Shown here: positions 11,977-13,749 of the stretch, piece by piece | Position numbering within the stretch: position 1 is the first letter of the stretch | How the letters are laid out: every line of letters starts with the position of its first letter | Translations under genes and position numbers: made by a program | Source of the DNA: Escherichia virus TH15 | Length of the DNA stretch: 64,000 bases | Sequence record: MT446392.1 | Strand: one strand, 5' to 3' | The notes under the pieces: generated by a model | Databases searched by the model: none | The model's input: the letters and a program-made list of their open reading frames with translations, nothing else | Told to the model about the DNA's origin: nothing

Positions 11977-12455
11977 TTATGAATATTAAATTTGGTCAGA
12001 CCATCCCTAAAGGTTATGTGATTGAAATTGAAACCTGGGAAAATGATGGTGACAACTATAAAACCCAGACAATATTTGGTGTAGAAGAACAAGAAATCCA
12101 GCAGTACAAATATATCCTGGAACTTTTTCAAGGCTCTCATTGTAACTATCCAGATAAATGTGGTAATTCAGAATGGGACGTAGTTAAAGACTTTCTTATC
12201 GCACACATTGAATCTGGTGTAAAATCTGGTCAATTAACTCCTGAATTCATTAACAAAACACTTTGTATTGAAAATCTGGAAAACCTGGTTGAAGGTGACA
12301 ACGGCCAGGAATTTGAATTATTGTGTTCTCTCCAGGAATTGCTGGGCGAGCCGGTGGAATATGATAGCGTTTTGCGCGTAGTTTCGTGGGTAAAATTATA
12401 CATCATCGAAGAAGAAATCCAAATACCAAACGTTAAAGCACTTAATATGCTTTAA
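11973..12455 (+). CDS. hypothetical protein
   Basis: 160-aa ORF, start overlaps upstream stop (possible start at 11979). Confidence 0.45.
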   Translation: MIMNIKFGQTIPKGYVIEIETWENDGDNYKTQTIFGVEEQEIQQYKYILELFQGSHCNYPDKCGNSEWDVVKDFLIAHIESGVKSGQLTPEFINKTLCIENLENLVEGDNGQEFELLCSLQELLGEPVEYDSVLRVVSWVKLYIIEEEIQIPNVKALNML

Positions 12456-12533
12456 GAGTTATGTGTTATTATTAATAAGTACCCTCTATTACCAAAGGTT
12501 CTTCCCTCAAAGAACCTCTCATAATAGAATTAA

Positions 12534-12607
12534 GGCCCTGTAGCTGGACGGTCAAGCGAGCGACTCATAATCGCTGGATGGTGGTTCGATTCCACCCAGG
12601 GCCACCA
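12534..12607 (+). tRNA. tRNA with anticodon CAU (Met, or Ile if lysidine-modified)
   Basis: Hand-folded cloverleaf: acceptor GGCCCTG/CAGGGCC, anticodon stem AGCGA/TCGCT with loop CTCATAA, T-arm GGTGG-TTCGATT-CCACC, encoded CCA. Confidence 0.7.
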
Positions 12608-12741
12608 AACTTATTTTAAATTATCATGGCGATAGGTATTGTAGATGCGGTTCGATTCCGTCCGGGGTAAGTGCCCTAGCATGCTTGGAGCATGAGTGAC
12701 TTAATATTGGTGGTTCGAGTCCACCCCGCTATGAACAAACA
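12608..12741 (+). other. tRNA-like remnants or small structured RNA: two T-arm-like hairpins without a complete cloverleaf
   Basis: GCGG-TTCGATT-CCGT (about 12647-12661) and GGTGG-TTCGAGT-CCACC (about 12709-12725); no matching acceptor strands found by hand. Confidence 0.3.
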
Positions 12742-12817
12742 CGAGGCATAGCTCAGAAGGAAGAGCAAGGACCTTCTAAGTCCTAGGTCGTAGGTTCGAT
12801 TCCTACTGTCTCGACCA
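12742..12817 (+). tRNA. tRNA-Arg (anticodon UCU)
   Basis: Hand-folded cloverleaf: acceptor CGAGGCA/TGTCTCG (one G-U), D-arm GCTC/GAGC with GG loop, anticodon loop CTTCTAA, T-arm GTAGG-TTCGATT-CCTAC, encoded CCA. Confidence 0.75.
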
Positions 12818-13132
12818 AACAAGAAACCGGGTCGCTACCGGTAAGTCGTCGGACTGAAGTTCCCTGTTTAAGGACTGACATTAATAAATCTTTATGTTTT
12901 GTTAATGACCCCTTATCTCACAGCTGAAACGGCGCACCTAATTATCGATTCGAGGAAATATCTTTGCCGTAAGCCGAGTGGCGTTTTTGACGGAACGTTC
13001 GGATATGGTCGAGATATGGCCTTTTAAAAATATTGAGTAGCGTCAACTACTTGATAACCGGGTTCGAATCCCGGCGTATCGTACAAACACTTGCCTAGCA
13101 GGTGGAACCCCGACAAGGTTACCCTAGGTTAA

Positions 13133-13161
13133 AGCCCCTCCCGAAAGGTTGGGGCTTTTTT
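13133..13161 (+). terminator. rho-independent terminator after the tRNA/RNA cluster
   Basis: Hairpin AGCCCC-(12 nt loop)-GGGGCT followed by TTTTTT. Confidence 0.6.
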
Positions 13162-13168
13162 ATAAATA
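13161..13168 (+). promoter_or_regulatory. possible late promoter TATAAATA
   Basis: Exact TATAAATA about 27 nt upstream of the ATG at 13195. Confidence 0.3.
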
Positions 13169-13194
13169 TAACGTACCCATAACTAAGGAAATTT

Positions 13195-13749
13195 ATGAAA
13201 CTTTTAAAATATCTAAGCTGGATTCTGTTAGTGCCACTGGATTTCATTTCAATGATTCTGGCTGTTATCCTTGCACCATTTGTAGTGCCGTTCCATAACA
13301 AAAAGACTGGTAAGCTTCCGTTCGGATTTGACTGGATGATGACATACGATAATCCAATTGATGGTGACCGTGGTCATGTTAAACGTTGGGAAAAAATCAG
13401 AAAATGGCCGTTAGGTGTTTACTTCCAGCGAGTGGCCTGGCTCTGGCGAAATAAAGCCTACAATTTTGCTTATCATAAGCTGGGTCGCGATTGCGATTCT
13501 AAATTCCATTATAAAGGTAATCCTGATGTTGAATCGGGCTCCCCGGATAAAGCTCACCATGGCTGGCTCTGGATGTGGAATGATAATGCATGGGGCGTGT
13601 TCGCTTCCGTACCTTATCTTAAAGTTGGTGGAATCACCTTTTATCTGCGCGTGTATTGCGGTTGGAAGCTCAAAAGTCTTCTGTCCCGTCCTATCCCGAA
13701 AGCTATGTTAGCCTTTCATATCAATCCCTTCCGTTTTTATAAGAACTAA
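13195..13749 (+). CDS. hypothetical membrane-anchored protein
   Basis: 184 aa; N-terminal hydrophobic segment; SD ctaaggaaa upstream. Confidence 0.5.
   Translation: MKLLKYLSWILLVPLDFISMILAVILAPFVVPFHNKKTGKLPFGFDWMMTYDNPIDGDRGHVKRWEKIRKWPLGVYFQRVAWLWRNKAYNFAYHKLGRDCDSKFHYKGNPDVESGSPDKAHHGWLWMWNDNAWGVFASVPYLKVGGITFYLRVYCGWKLKSLLSRPIPKAMLAFHINPFRFYKN

What the first reader, a model, noticed from the sequence alone, without database searches (positions are those of the whole stretch)
12608..13132. tRNA cluster holds only two intact tRNAs plus tRNA-like fragments and a 300-bp structured non-coding stretch
Beside the intact tRNA-Met(CAU) and tRNA-Arg(UCU), three canonical T-arm hairpins (about 12647-12661, 12709-12725, 13058-13074) have no acceptor or anticodon arms that I could pair by hand. 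The 12818-13132 region has no ORF but contains an anticodon-arm-like hairpin (ACCGG-GTCGCTA-CCGGT, 12826-12842) before the terminator. These may be decayed tRNA genes or stable small RNAs like those adjacent to the T4 tRNA cluster.
Basis: partly seen in the sequence, partly recalled or inferred. Interest (0 to 1): 0.4.

Follow-up and report, generated by a model that had tools for sequence, protein, structure and literature searches.

The report
Phage tRNA operon with tRNA-like RNAs
This stretch of a T4-like phage genome encodes two real tRNAs, the two long-known T4 small RNAs rnaD and rnaC, and a previously unannotated 108-base tRNA-like RNA with two T-loops that is also found in unrelated N4-like phages, so the "fragments" are working RNA genes, not decayed tRNAs.

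Summary
The sequence features are real. All five GGTTCRANTCC T-loop motifs in the 64-kb window lie on the + strand between 12583 and 13071, against 0.24 expected by chance. ARAGORN and Infernal find only two canonical tRNAs: CAU at 12534-12607 (probably Ile2) and Arg-UCU at 12742-12817.

The 300-bp "structured non-coding stretch" is already known. It is about 90-93% identical to T4/RB5 rnaD (species 2 RNA, window 12819-12939) and rnaC (species 1 RNA, 12945-13083). Its third T-arm lies in rnaC, which does have an acceptor-like stem.

The two T-arms in the spacer between the tRNAs are not debris. They belong to one 108-nt RNA at 12626-12733, made of:
- an acceptor-like stem and a true T-arm;
- an inner T-loop hairpin;
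- a variable hairpin;
- a hairpin with a GG loop.

This RNA occurs in T4-like phages of three genera and in N4-like Gamaleyavirus and Kaypoctavirus. Across 21 distinct sequences, 98.9% of cells are paired and 13 of 26 pairs show compensatory changes. It is not in Rfam, it is unannotated in every GenBank record examined, and two pattern and BLAST searches of bacterial genomes found nothing.

Its function is unknown. My best guess is a tRNA "top-half" mimic that RNase P excises from the tRNA precursor.

The parts
12448..12472 (+). Candidate T4-type middle promoter (MotA box TGCTTTA 12448-54, 12-nt spacer, TATTAT 12467-72) upstream of the RNA operon. Tentative.
   Evidence: The pattern TGCTTNA-N11-13-TANNNT matches here. 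The window has 8 matches against 3.3 expected, so a single match is weak evidence. The consensus itself comes from established T4 knowledge, not from a test here.
12534..12607 (+). Canonical tRNA with anticodon CAU, with encoded CCA. Called Met by ARAGORN; probably tRNA-Ile2, the AUA reader after lysidine modification.
   Evidence: ARAGORN. Rfam tRNA 62.6 bits. The best E. coli matches (80.5% over the full length) are annotated tRNA-Ile. The tRNA at the equivalent position in KLB31 is annotated tRNA-Ile2.
12626..12733 (+). Unannotated 108-nt tRNA-like RNA with two T-loop hairpins. Layout:
- acceptor-like stem ATGGCG 12626-31 / CGCTAT 12727-32;
- tentative 2-bp mini-hairpin 12632-33 / 12638-39 with loop AGGU;
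- invariant GUAGAU 12641-46;
- H1 (T-arm-like) 12647-61;
- H2 (variable stem-loop) 12664-77;
- H3, CATGC-UUGGA-GCAUG, 12680-94;
- conserved single-stranded GACUUAAUAUU 12698-708;
- true T-arm 12709-25;
- discriminator G12733.
   Evidence: Alignment of 21 distinct sequences from three phage clades. 98.9% of cells are paired against 41-58% for slid controls, and 13 of 26 pairs change on both sides. RNAalifold independently returns the same five helices. Covariance model R1 scores 110.9 bits here and at most 19 bits on any tRNA or on rnaC. No Rfam family matches.
12742..12817 (+). Canonical tRNA-Arg(UCU), the AGA reader, with encoded CCA.
   Evidence: ARAGORN. Rfam tRNA 68.4 bits. Orthologous to the RB5, JS98 and VR25 tRNA-Arg.
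12819..12939 (+). Orthologue of T4 rnaD (species 2 RNA, 121 nt). Its 3' end reads CCU here, not the CCA of T4 and RB5.
   Evidence: Aligns end to end with the rnaD annotated in RB5 (KM606995). The hairpin stem covaries (RB5 GCCGG/CCGGC; PSTCR6 ACUGG/CCGGU).
12945..13083 (+). Orthologue of T4 rnaC (species 1 RNA, 139 nt), itself tRNA-like:
- acceptor stem CGAUUCG 12946-52 / CGUAUCG 13075-81;
- T-arm 13058-74;
- hairpin with invariant loop CGUCAA, about 13031-53;
- long extra arm.
   Evidence: Aligns with the rnaC annotated in T4 strain 147 and RB5. Single-sequence fold -49.2 kcal/mol, z = -3.7. Compensatory changes in the acceptor, the T-arm and the CGUCAA hairpin in PG7, PS49 and VPA32.
13084..13132 (+). 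Conserved 3' trailer hairpin between rnaC and the terminator.
   Evidence: Conserved in T4, RB5, VR25 and also in JS98, which lacks rnaC. Folds with z = -2.2 together with the terminator.
13133..13161 (+). Intrinsic terminator (AGCCCC...GGGGCU followed by a U-run) that ends the RNA operon.
   Evidence: Terminator scan, fold, and 'terminator' annotated at the homologous site in several T4-like records.

Best explanation
Window 12448-13161 is one + strand operon of stable RNAs in a Gaprivervirus-type T4-like phage. In order it holds a promoter region, tRNA(CAU, probably Ile2), a 108-nt double-T-loop tRNA-like RNA, tRNA-Arg(UCU), rnaD, rnaC, a trailer hairpin and a terminator.

Shown:
- the two tRNAs;
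- the orthology of 12819-13083 to T4 rnaD and rnaC, which are known RNAs of unknown function;
- that 12626-12733 is a selected, structured RNA family shared by T4-like and N4-like phages.

Inferred mechanism for the new RNA:
1. It is transcribed within the tRNA precursor.
2. Its acceptor-like stem (6 bp plus one mismatch) stacks on a canonical 5-bp T-arm. This gives the 12-layer minihelix that RNase P, 3' trimming enzymes and the CCA-adding enzyme recognise, so it is cut out like a tRNA and accumulates as a stable RNA of about 108-111 nt.
3. It has no anticodon arm. In its place sits a second module: a T-loop hairpin, a variable stem and a GG-loop hairpin. With the GG in the 5' single strand, this gives two T-loops and two GG motifs, enough for two tRNA-like 'elbows'.
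4. It therefore most likely acts by mimicking the top half of tRNA, binding or titrating a tRNA-recognising host or phage factor, rather than by decoding.

The confidence of 0.6 is for the whole statement. By step: about 0.97 for rnaD/rnaC and the two tRNAs, 0.9 that the 108-nt element is a real selected RNA fold, 0.65 that it is excised as a discrete stable RNA, and 0.4 that it acts in trans as a tRNA mimic.
For: Two tRNAs only.

Orthology to rnaD and rnaC: 679 phage records cover at least 80% of 12815-13170, with rnaC and rnaD annotated under the match in RB5, T4 147 and Kha5h.

Evidence for the new RNA:
- It is identical in VR5, VR25 and TH22. It is 95-98% identical in Kanagawavirus (PEi20, KLB31) and Karamvirus CkP1, although the flanking genes differ. 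It is 75-80% identical in Gamaleyavirus and Kaypoctavirus podoviruses.
- 98.9% of cells are paired. 13 of 26 pairs have double changes, against at most 2 in slid controls. The covariation score is 0.451 against 0.04-0.07.
- RNAalifold gives the same fold without being told it.
- Frequent G-U pairs fix the strand as +.
- There is one copy per genome at more than 100 bits, with nothing else above 19 bits.
- In Kanagawavirus it starts 3-4 nt after the CCA of the preceding tRNA, and here it ends 8 nt before tRNA-Arg. That is tRNA-like spacing.
- Most N4-like copies encode N73-C-C after the stem.
- In N4-like phages it also sits among tRNA genes.
Against: - There is no expression, processing or binding data for the new RNA. 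RNase P cleavage, CCA addition and stability are all inferred from shape.
- The single-sequence fold is not unusually stable (z = -0.19) and its minimum-energy structure misses the T-arm.
- The alignment holds only three clades, so some covariation counts reflect a few events. The 2-bp mini-hairpin was found post hoc.
- The acceptor stem has 6 rather than 7 Watson-Crick pairs, and the T4-like copies encode no CCA.
- The two-elbow idea rests on invariant nucleotides, which covariation cannot test.
- No conserved protein neighbour points to a partner.
Confidence: 0.6

Rival explanations
1. The T-arm hairpins are remnants of decayed tRNA genes, for example the tRNA-Asn or tRNA-Tyr that occupy this slot in JS98 and RB5, and have no function of their own.
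For: JS98 and RB5 carry tRNA-Asn (RB5 also tRNA-Tyr) between the CAU tRNA and tRNA-Arg. By eye, the 3' part of the element (GACTTAATATTGGTGGTTCGA) resembles the anticodon-loop to T-arm stretch of tRNA-Asn with small deletions. Its T-arm is nearly identical to that of the neighbouring CAU tRNA. An origin from tRNA genes is therefore plausible.
Against: The same 108-nt unit is kept in three T4-like genera and two N4-like genera, with compensatory changes in all five helices and invariant single-stranded blocks. Pseudogenes do not keep 98.9% pairing at 75% sequence identity.
Confidence: 0.03
2. The element acts only in cis, as a tRNA-shaped punctuation signal. It directs RNase P or RNase E cuts that separate neighbouring tRNAs or release and stabilise downstream mRNAs, and has no role once excised.
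For: It always lies inside tRNA or RNA operons. In PEi20, KLB31 and CkP1 it sits directly upstream of protein-coding genes. The acceptor plus T-arm minihelix is the minimal RNase P substrate (established knowledge; the YrlA example is in PMC4201824).
Against: A punctuation signal needs only the outer minihelix. The inner three hairpins and about 35 invariant single-stranded or loop positions (GG, GUAGAU, UAGC, UGG, GACUUA) are conserved across phage families. In the window its neighbours are tRNAs, which carry their own RNase P sites.
Confidence: 0.2
3. It is a chargeable non-canonical tRNA or tmRNA-like molecule, for example one alanylated through a G3-U70 pair, that enters translation or ribosome rescue.
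For: The window, PEi20, KLB31 and L009 copies have G3-U70 in the acceptor-like stem. The 5' single strand with GG next to the acceptor stem recalls the D-loop analogue of the tmRNA tRNA-like domain (own knowledge, not tested here).
Against: There is no anticodon arm and no tag reading frame. ARAGORN finds no tmRNA. Rfam tmRNA models match only the bare T-arms at 5-9 bits. G3-U70 is replaced by A-U in CkP1 and by C-G or U-A in all N4-like copies. The discriminator varies, and the T4-like copies encode no CCA.
Confidence: 0.05
4. It is a bacterial-type Y RNA (YrlA-like) that binds a Ro60/Rsr protein.
For: The inner module has the same arm order as the YrlA tRNA-like domain: T stem-loop, then a stem-loop of variable sequence, then a D-like stem-loop (PMC4201824, compared).
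Against: The Rfam YrlA model gives no credible match. It scores 14.5 bits (E=7.4) over the outer T-arm and the start of tRNA-Arg in the wide search, and nothing in the narrow one. The GNCGAAN0-1G Ro-binding motif is not conserved (GGCGAU in T4-like copies, GACGGG or GGCAAG in N4-like copies). YrlA lies within 4 kb of rsr, and no such gene is annotated in any of the loci fetched.
Confidence: 0.04

Closest known systems
Bacteriophage T4 species 1 RNA (rnaC) and species 2 RNA (rnaD)
   Same: Window 12945-13083 and 12819-12939 are these genes: about 90-93% identity, the same order after tRNA-Arg, and the same terminator. The new 108-nt RNA resembles rnaC in kind. Both are small RNAs encoded inside a phage tRNA operon, with an acceptor-like stem next to a canonical T-arm and non-tRNA arms in between, and both are of unknown function (PMC3014915, PMC9697503).
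   Different: Beyond the T-arm, the 108-nt RNA shares no detectable sequence or covariance-model similarity with rnaC or rnaD (13.8 bits on T4 rnaC). It has a second T-loop hairpin and a GG-loop hairpin. It is absent from T4 itself. Unlike rnaC and rnaD, it is also found in N4-like podoviruses.
YrlA bacterial Y RNAs (Rfam RF02553; Chen et al. 2014, PMC4201824)
   Same: The inner module has the arm order T-like, variable stem, D-like. YrlA shows that tRNA-mimicking modules can be modified by tRNA enzymes and, given a 7-bp stem, cleaved by RNase P and extended with CCA.
   Different: There is no Rfam match, no conserved Ro60-binding motif and no nearby rsr gene. Here the ends of the RNA form an acceptor-like stem next to a second, true T-arm rather than a Ro-binding stem. 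The D-like hairpin has a 5-nt loop.
tRNA-like domain of tmRNA
   Same: An acceptor stem plus T-arm with a single-stranded, GG-containing D-loop substitute and no anticodon arm. G3-U70 is present in some copies.
   Different: There is no mRNA-like region, no pseudoknots and no P2 helix. G3-U70 is not conserved, and neither ARAGORN nor Rfam detects a tmRNA.
Canonical tRNA (Rfam RF00005)
   Same: Genomic position and spacing inside a tRNA cluster, an acceptor-like stem, and a consensus T-arm (GGUUCGAnUCC).
   Different: It has no D-stem of normal size and no anticodon arm with a 7-nt loop. It is 108 nt long with three extra hairpins, and neither Infernal nor default ARAGORN detects it.

Membership tests
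Canonical tRNA | Cloverleaf detected by tRNA covariance or heuristic models (7-bp acceptor, D-arm, anticodon arm with a 7-nt loop, T-arm) | tested here: not met
   For 12626-12733 and 12945-13083 there is no RF00005 hit even at E<=10 and no ARAGORN call at default settings. Only with lowered thresholds does ARAGORN force calls with a 22-nt 'intron' or a 4-base anticodon. The feature is met for 12534-12607 and 12742-12817.
T4 rnaC (species 1 RNA) | Full-length sequence homology to the annotated T4/RB5 rnaC | tested here: met
   Window 12945-13083 aligns end to end with RB5 and T4 rnaC (139 nt) with few substitutions.
T4 rnaC (species 1 RNA) | Position downstream of tRNA-Arg and rnaD, upstream of the operon terminator | tested here: met
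   The order is the same as in RB5 and T4 strain 147.
T4 rnaC (species 1 RNA) | Accumulates as a stable RNA in infected cells | not testable with these tools
   This is known for T4 (Northern blot in PMC9697503). There are no data for this phage.
T4 rnaD (species 2 RNA) | Full-length sequence homology to the annotated RB5 rnaD, immediately after tRNA-Arg | tested here: met
   Window 12819-12939 aligns with RB5 rnaD (121 nt), starting 2 nt after the tRNA-Arg CCA.
T4 rnaD (species 2 RNA) | Encoded 3'-terminal CCA as in T4 and RB5 | tested here: not met
   The window and VR25 read CCT at 12937-39 where T4 and RB5 read CCA. This is a minor difference that CCA repair could compensate (inference).
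YrlA / bacterial Y RNA | Match to the Rfam RF02553 covariance model | tested here: not met
   The only match is 14.5 bits against a gathering score of 69 (E=7.4), over the outer T-arm and into tRNA-Arg. The 121-nt search gives nothing.
YrlA / bacterial Y RNA | Conserved GNCGAAN0-1G Ro60-binding motif near the 5' end | tested here: not met
   The 5' ends are AUGGCGAU, GACGGGUC and GGCAAGC in the three clades.
YrlA / bacterial Y RNA | Encoded within about 4 kb of a Ro60/Rsr (TROVE) gene | tested here: inconclusive
   No such product is annotated in any fetched locus. The window's proteins were not scanned for TROVE domains.
YrlA / bacterial Y RNA | tRNA-like module with arm order T, acceptor-like stem-loop, D | tested here: met
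   H1 (T-loop), H2 (variable sequence, covarying) and H3 (GG loop) follow that order (PMC4201824).
tmRNA | tRNA-like domain plus tag reading frame, detectable by ARAGORN or Rfam tmRNA models | tested here: not met
   ARAGORN finds no tmRNA. Rfam tmRNA-family hits cover only the bare T-arms at 5-18 bits.

The most novel reading that the evidence does not exclude
The 108-nt RNA founds an undescribed class of phage 'double top-half' tRNA mimics: two acceptor/T-arm-like minihelices, each with its own T-loop/GG elbow and no anticodon. The class would be exchanged horizontally between the tRNA clusters of unrelated virulent enterobacterial phages (Straboviridae and Schitoviridae). It would act in trans as a decoy or adaptor for a tRNA-recognising factor, for instance by neutralising a host defence that senses or attacks tRNA acceptor or elbow regions, or by redirecting a tRNA-processing enzyme. 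The mosaic of other short unannotated modules shared between the G7C RNA region and further phage groups suggests it is one member of a wider pool of such RNAs.
Probability: 0.25. Interest if true: 0.8.

Novelty: new variant of a known kind. Interest (0 to 1): 0.5.

Why it matters
Most of the finding is ordinary: two tRNAs plus the classical T4 rnaC and rnaD genes. Recognising them still corrects many database records, which leave them blank, call them hypothetical proteins, or in PG7 annotate rnaC as a 95-nt tRNA-Met.

The useful result is the spacer element. It is a compact RNA with strong covariation support that tRNA finders and Rfam miss, and it is conserved between T4-like myoviruses and N4-like podoviruses. 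After 50 years the roles of T4's own tRNA-like RNAs are still unknown. A second, independent tRNA-like family in the same genomic niche, with a clean alignment and a covariance model, offers a new and testable way into what such RNAs do for phages: processing, modification-enzyme or nuclease titration, or anti-defence.

It also shows that the "minimal" two-tRNA clusters of Gaprivervirus are not eroded clusters. They are compact operons that keep the readers of two codons I recall as rare in E. coli (AUA, AGA; not tested here), plus three non-coding RNAs.

Tried and rejected
- Rfam at E<=10 on 12400-13250 and on 12620-12740: nothing beyond the two tRNAs. The remaining hits were chance-level or cover only a T-arm (Plastid-ycf2 on the reverse strand of the tRNAs, permuted tmRNA, YrlA, NsiR1).
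- ARAGORN with introns, lowered thresholds and mitochondrial mode: only forced, inconsistent calls on the element and on rnaC.
- Single-sequence folding of the element is uninformative (z = -0.19) and the minimum-energy fold disrupts the T-arm. Only comparative analysis reveals the fold.
- BLAST of the element against 5,426 complete E. coli genomes gave no match. The pattern scan of 185,579 species-representative bacterial and archaeal genomes gave 0 hits. So no bacterial or prophage copy was found by these two searches.
- The metagenome pattern scan gave only Gamaleyavirus-like contigs and no new clade. The pattern was strict, so distant relatives would be missed.
- An all-against-all column search for pairing between the two long single-stranded segments found no convincing helix. 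Many spurious 'covarying' pairs arise because there are only three clades. Only the 2-bp mini-hairpin 12632-33 / 12638-39 looked consistent, and I keep it as tentative.
- I considered hairpin H3 as an anticodon arm (loop CUUGGAG, anticodon UGG). I rejected this because the closing C-G pair covaries with A-U, so the loop is 5 nt, and position 37 would be U in the N4-like copies.
- I considered GACUUAAUA as an anticodon-loop mimic (UAA). There is no flanking stem, and the 'anticodon' varies (UAA/UAG).
- Literature searches for a description of this element returned nothing specific. A bulk catalogue of about 10,000 candidate viral structured RNAs (PMC10690425) could contain it, and I could not check that.
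Full report
**Origin of the window.** The region 12400-13250 is 96.9% identical to Escherichia phage TH22 and 94-95% identical to vB_EcoM_VR25 and VR5, which belong to Gaprivervirus (Straboviridae, Tevenvirinae). The window is therefore from a T4-like phage. The flanking genes are the trna.2/3/4-type ORFs upstream and small hypothetical ORFs downstream, as in JS98 and VR25.

**Check of the observation.**
- ARAGORN on all 64 kb reports two genes: tRNA(CAU) at 12534-12607 and tRNA-Arg(UCU) at 12742-12817.
- Rfam at gathering thresholds reports the same two and nothing else in the window.
- With permissive filters up to E=10 on 12400-13250, no further tRNA hit appears.
- The three extra T-arm hairpins are at the stated coordinates.
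- GGTTCRANTCC occurs five times in the window, all on the + strand between 12583 and 13071. The expectation is 0.24, and none of 100 shuffles reaches five.
- The hairpin ACCGG-GTCGCTA-CCGGT is at 12826-42.
- Only ORFs of 30-42 aa overlap 12818-13132.
- A terminator lies at 13133-13161.

So the features are real and non-random. What does not hold is the statement that the T-arms lack acceptor stems, as shown below.

**The 300-bp stretch is T4 rnaD plus rnaC.**
- A blastn search with 12815-13170 finds 799 phage records, 679 of them covering at least 80% of the query at mostly 86-95% identity. Where the records are annotated in detail (RB5, T4 strain 147, Kha5h), the features under the match are tRNA-Arg, rnaD, rnaC and a terminator.
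- Aligned with RB5, the window's 12819-12939 corresponds base for base to rnaD ("species II RNA", 121 nt), and 12945-13083 corresponds to rnaC ("species 1 RNA", 139 nt).
Its stem covaries (A-U to G-C in RB5, C-G to U-G in PSTCR6) while its loop GUCGCUA is invariant.
It is followed by CGUAUCG (13075-81), which pairs with CGAUUCG (12946-52).
- In the Karamvirus homologues the acceptor stem reads CGGUUCG/CGUUCCG. The T-stem changes CCGGG/CCCGG to CCUGG/CCAGG or CCAGG/CCUGG. A hairpin with the invariant loop CGUCAA keeps pairing through several changes.
- The single-sequence fold of rnaC is a four-armed, tRNA-like shape at -49.2 kcal/mol, z = -3.7.
- Both RNAs are known from T4, are expressed during infection, and still have no assigned function (PMC3014915; PMC9697503).

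This part of the finding is therefore "already known".

**The spacer between the two tRNAs holds one conserved RNA, not two fragments.**
- A blastn search with 12606-12741 finds only 39 records. They fall into three groups: identical copies in VR5, VR25 and TH22; 95-98% identical copies in T4-like phages of other genera (Kanagawavirus PEi20, PEi26 and KLB31; Karamvirus CkP1); and 76-80% identical copies over 12641-12732 in G7C-like N4-like podoviruses (Gamaleyavirus).
- A reciprocal search with the G7C copy adds two Klebsiella Kaypoctavirus-type phages at 74-75%.
- No feature is annotated on the element in any of these records; Mimir124 has an opposite-strand ORF call over it.
- In the T4-like genomes the flanks differ. 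In Kanagawavirus the element follows a CAU tRNA by 3-4 nt and is followed by protein genes. In CkP1 it lies between two CDSs.
- In the N4-like genomes it lies in an ORF-poor region of about 1.2 kb that also holds tRNA genes.

**Structure of the element.** I trimmed 21 distinct sequences to the element and aligned them. By eye, the following helices are present in all three clades:
- acceptor-like stem, ATGGCG 12626-31 with CGCTAT 12727-32;
- H1, GCGG-UUCGAUU-CCGU, 12647-61;
- H2, GGGGU-AAGU-GCCCU, 12664-77, which varies in sequence and length;
- H3, CAUGC-UUGGA-GCAUG, 12680-94;
- the T-arm, GGUGG-UUCGAGU-CCACC, 12709-25, separated by one nucleotide from the 3' strand of the acceptor-like stem.

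Counting on the alignment gives these results:

| Measure | This structure | Partner slid by 1-3 columns |
|---|---|---|
| Cells forming a standard pair | 98.9% | 41-58% |
| Pairs with a change on both sides | 13 of 26 | at most 2 |
| Covariation score | 0.451 | 0.04-0.07 |

No column shuffle out of 500 reached the observed values. RNAalifold, run without my structure, returns the same five helices (25 pairs, 13 with compensatory changes). Numerous G-U pairs, which would be C-A mismatches on the other strand, fix the RNA on the + strand.

About 48 columns are invariant. They include single-stranded or loop blocks: GG (12635-36), UAGAU (12642-46), CC (12662-63), UAGC (12677-80), UGG in the H3 loop, and GACUUA (12698-703).

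A covariance model built from this alignment scores 110.9 bits at 12626-12733. It scores more than 100 bits once in each related locus. It scores at most 19 bits on any tRNA and 13.8 bits on T4 rnaC. The family is therefore distinct and single-copy.

An all-pairs scan suggested one further 2-bp helix, 12632-33 with 12638-39, closing the loop AGGU. It has 3-4 pair types per position. Because I found it post hoc in an alignment of only three clades, I treat it as tentative.

**What the element is not.**
- It is not a canonical tRNA.
- It is not a tmRNA. ARAGORN finds none, and Rfam tmRNA models touch only the bare T-arms.
- It is not in Rfam 15 under any name.
- Two searches of bacterial genomes found nothing: BLAST against 5,426 complete E. 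coli genomes, and a strict pattern scan of one genome for each of 185,579 prokaryotic species.
- Viral and metagenome scans with the same strict pattern return only members of the same three clades.
- Decay of tRNA genes is excluded as the present state by the compensatory changes. A tRNA origin remains plausible. The outer T-arm is almost identical to that of the adjacent CAU tRNA, and the GACUUAAUAUUGG-T-arm stretch resembles the anticodon-loop to T-arm part of the tRNA-Asn that occupies the same slot in JS98 and RB5 (by eye).

**How it most likely works (inference).**
- The 6-bp closing stem, one non-canonical layer (A-C or U-C) and the 5-bp T-stem make a 12-layer stack topped by a consensus T-loop. 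[quoted passage not shown]
- The element is spaced like a tRNA gene within the operon. Most N4-like copies encode N73-C-C after the stem.
- I therefore expect excision from the polycistronic precursor into a stable RNA of about 108-111 nt.
- In place of D and anticodon arms there is a single strand with an invariant GG, then H1, H2 and H3. H1 has a consensus T-loop, H2 is a sequence-variable stem, and H3 has a GG-containing loop.
- This is the same arm order (T, acceptor-like stem-loop, D) that Chen et al. describe for the tRNA-like module of YrlA Y RNAs. That module is modified by TruB and DusA, and one YrlA with a 7-bp stem is cut by RNase P and receives CCA (PMC4201824).
- Two T-loops and two GG motifs could form two tRNA-type elbows. 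That would make the RNA a fusion of two tRNA "top halves" with no decoding end.

The most economical function is mimicry: binding or titrating something that recognises the acceptor/T-arm/elbow part of tRNA. Whether that is a processing or modification enzyme or a host defence factor cannot be decided here.

I put the steps at roughly these probabilities:

| Claim | Probability |
|---|---|
| It is a real, selected RNA fold | 0.9 |
| It is excised as a discrete stable RNA | 0.65 |
| It acts in trans as a tRNA mimic | 0.4 |
| It acts specifically as an anti-defence decoy | 0.15 |

**Membership versus resemblance.** The resemblance to YrlA is architectural only. The Rfam YrlA model does not match, the Ro60-binding motif is not conserved, and no rsr gene is annotated nearby. 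The resemblance to the tmRNA tRNA-like domain is likewise partial. G3-U70 occurs in four T4-like copies but not in CkP1 or any N4-like copy. The closest relative in kind is T4 rnaC, encoded 210 nt downstream, but the two share nothing beyond the T-arm.

**The operon as a whole.**
- A MotA-box/-10 match lies at 12448-72. It is weak evidence.
- The terminator at 13133-61 bounds a unit that reads: tRNA(CAU), new RNA, tRNA-Arg(UCU), rnaD, rnaC, trailer hairpin.
- The best E. coli matches to the CAU tRNA are annotated tRNA-Ile, and the tRNA at the equivalent position in KLB31 is annotated tRNA-Ile2. This phage therefore appears to keep exactly the readers of AUA and AGA. That both codons are rare in E. 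coli is from my own knowledge and was not tested here.

**Verdict.** The previously unannotated double-T-loop RNA at 12626-12733 is the part worth following up.

Noticed in passing
L005 1965-3195 (G7C, NC_015933 34295-35525): The roughly 1.2-kb ORF-free region of G7C-like phages is a mosaic of short unannotated modules, each shared at about 80-90% identity with unrelated phages:
- about 2277-2363 with phiEco32-like/Kuravirus podoviruses;
- about 2372-2467 with Klebsiella Pylas, Salmonella FSL SP-058 and the T4-like Yersinia phages TG1 and phiR1-RT;
- 2486-2597 is the double-T-loop RNA.

By eye, module 2371-2469 has an outer stem GTGAGAAC/GTTCTCAC enclosing an acceptor-like stem CTTGGC/GCCAGG next to a T-arm. 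This suggests a wider pool of non-canonical tRNA-like RNA genes exchanged between phage tRNA clusters.
   Followed up: partly
window 12534-12607: The tRNA that ARAGORN calls Met(CAU) is probably tRNA-Ile2, the lysidine-modified AUA reader. Its best E. coli matches (80.5% over the full length) are annotated tRNA-Ile, and the tRNA at the equivalent position in KLB31 is annotated tRNA-Ile2. With tRNA-Arg(UCU), the cluster would keep the readers of AUA and AGA.
   Followed up: partly
window 12937-12939: The rnaD orthologue ends in CCT in the window and in VR25, where T4 and RB5 have CCA. If mature rnaD needs a CCA end, it would have to be repaired after transcription.
   Followed up: no
L001 (JS98, NC_010105) about 2290-2300: JS98 and JS10 keep rnaD and the trailer/terminator but have a clean deletion of the whole of rnaC. 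rnaC is therefore dispensable in at least one T4-like lineage.
   Followed up: no
L037 754-848 (Enterobacter phage PG7, KJ101592): The rnaC homologue of PG7 is annotated as a 95-nt 'tRNA-Met'. Many Tequatrovirus records annotate 'hypothetical protein' ORFs over rnaC/rnaD or leave them blank.
   Followed up: no
window 13084-13132: A hairpin between rnaC and the terminator is conserved with compensatory differences between the window (CCTAG...CTAGG) and T4 (GCCTTG...CAAGGC). It is retained even in JS98, which lacks rnaC. It may be a processing or stability element of the precursor.
   Followed up: no
window 13161-13168: TATAAATA, the T4 late-promoter consensus (own knowledge), lies directly after the terminator U-run and 27 nt upstream of the ATG at 13195.
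   Followed up: no
L023 860-2150 (Klebsiella phage VLCpiP4a, ON602749): After its five annotated tRNAs, this Kaypoctavirus has about 1.3 kb without ORFs. The stretch contains further T-arm-like hairpins (for example near 905-925 and 1365-1385) and a block homologous to the 3' part of the G7C RNA region, ending in a terminator.
   Followed up: no
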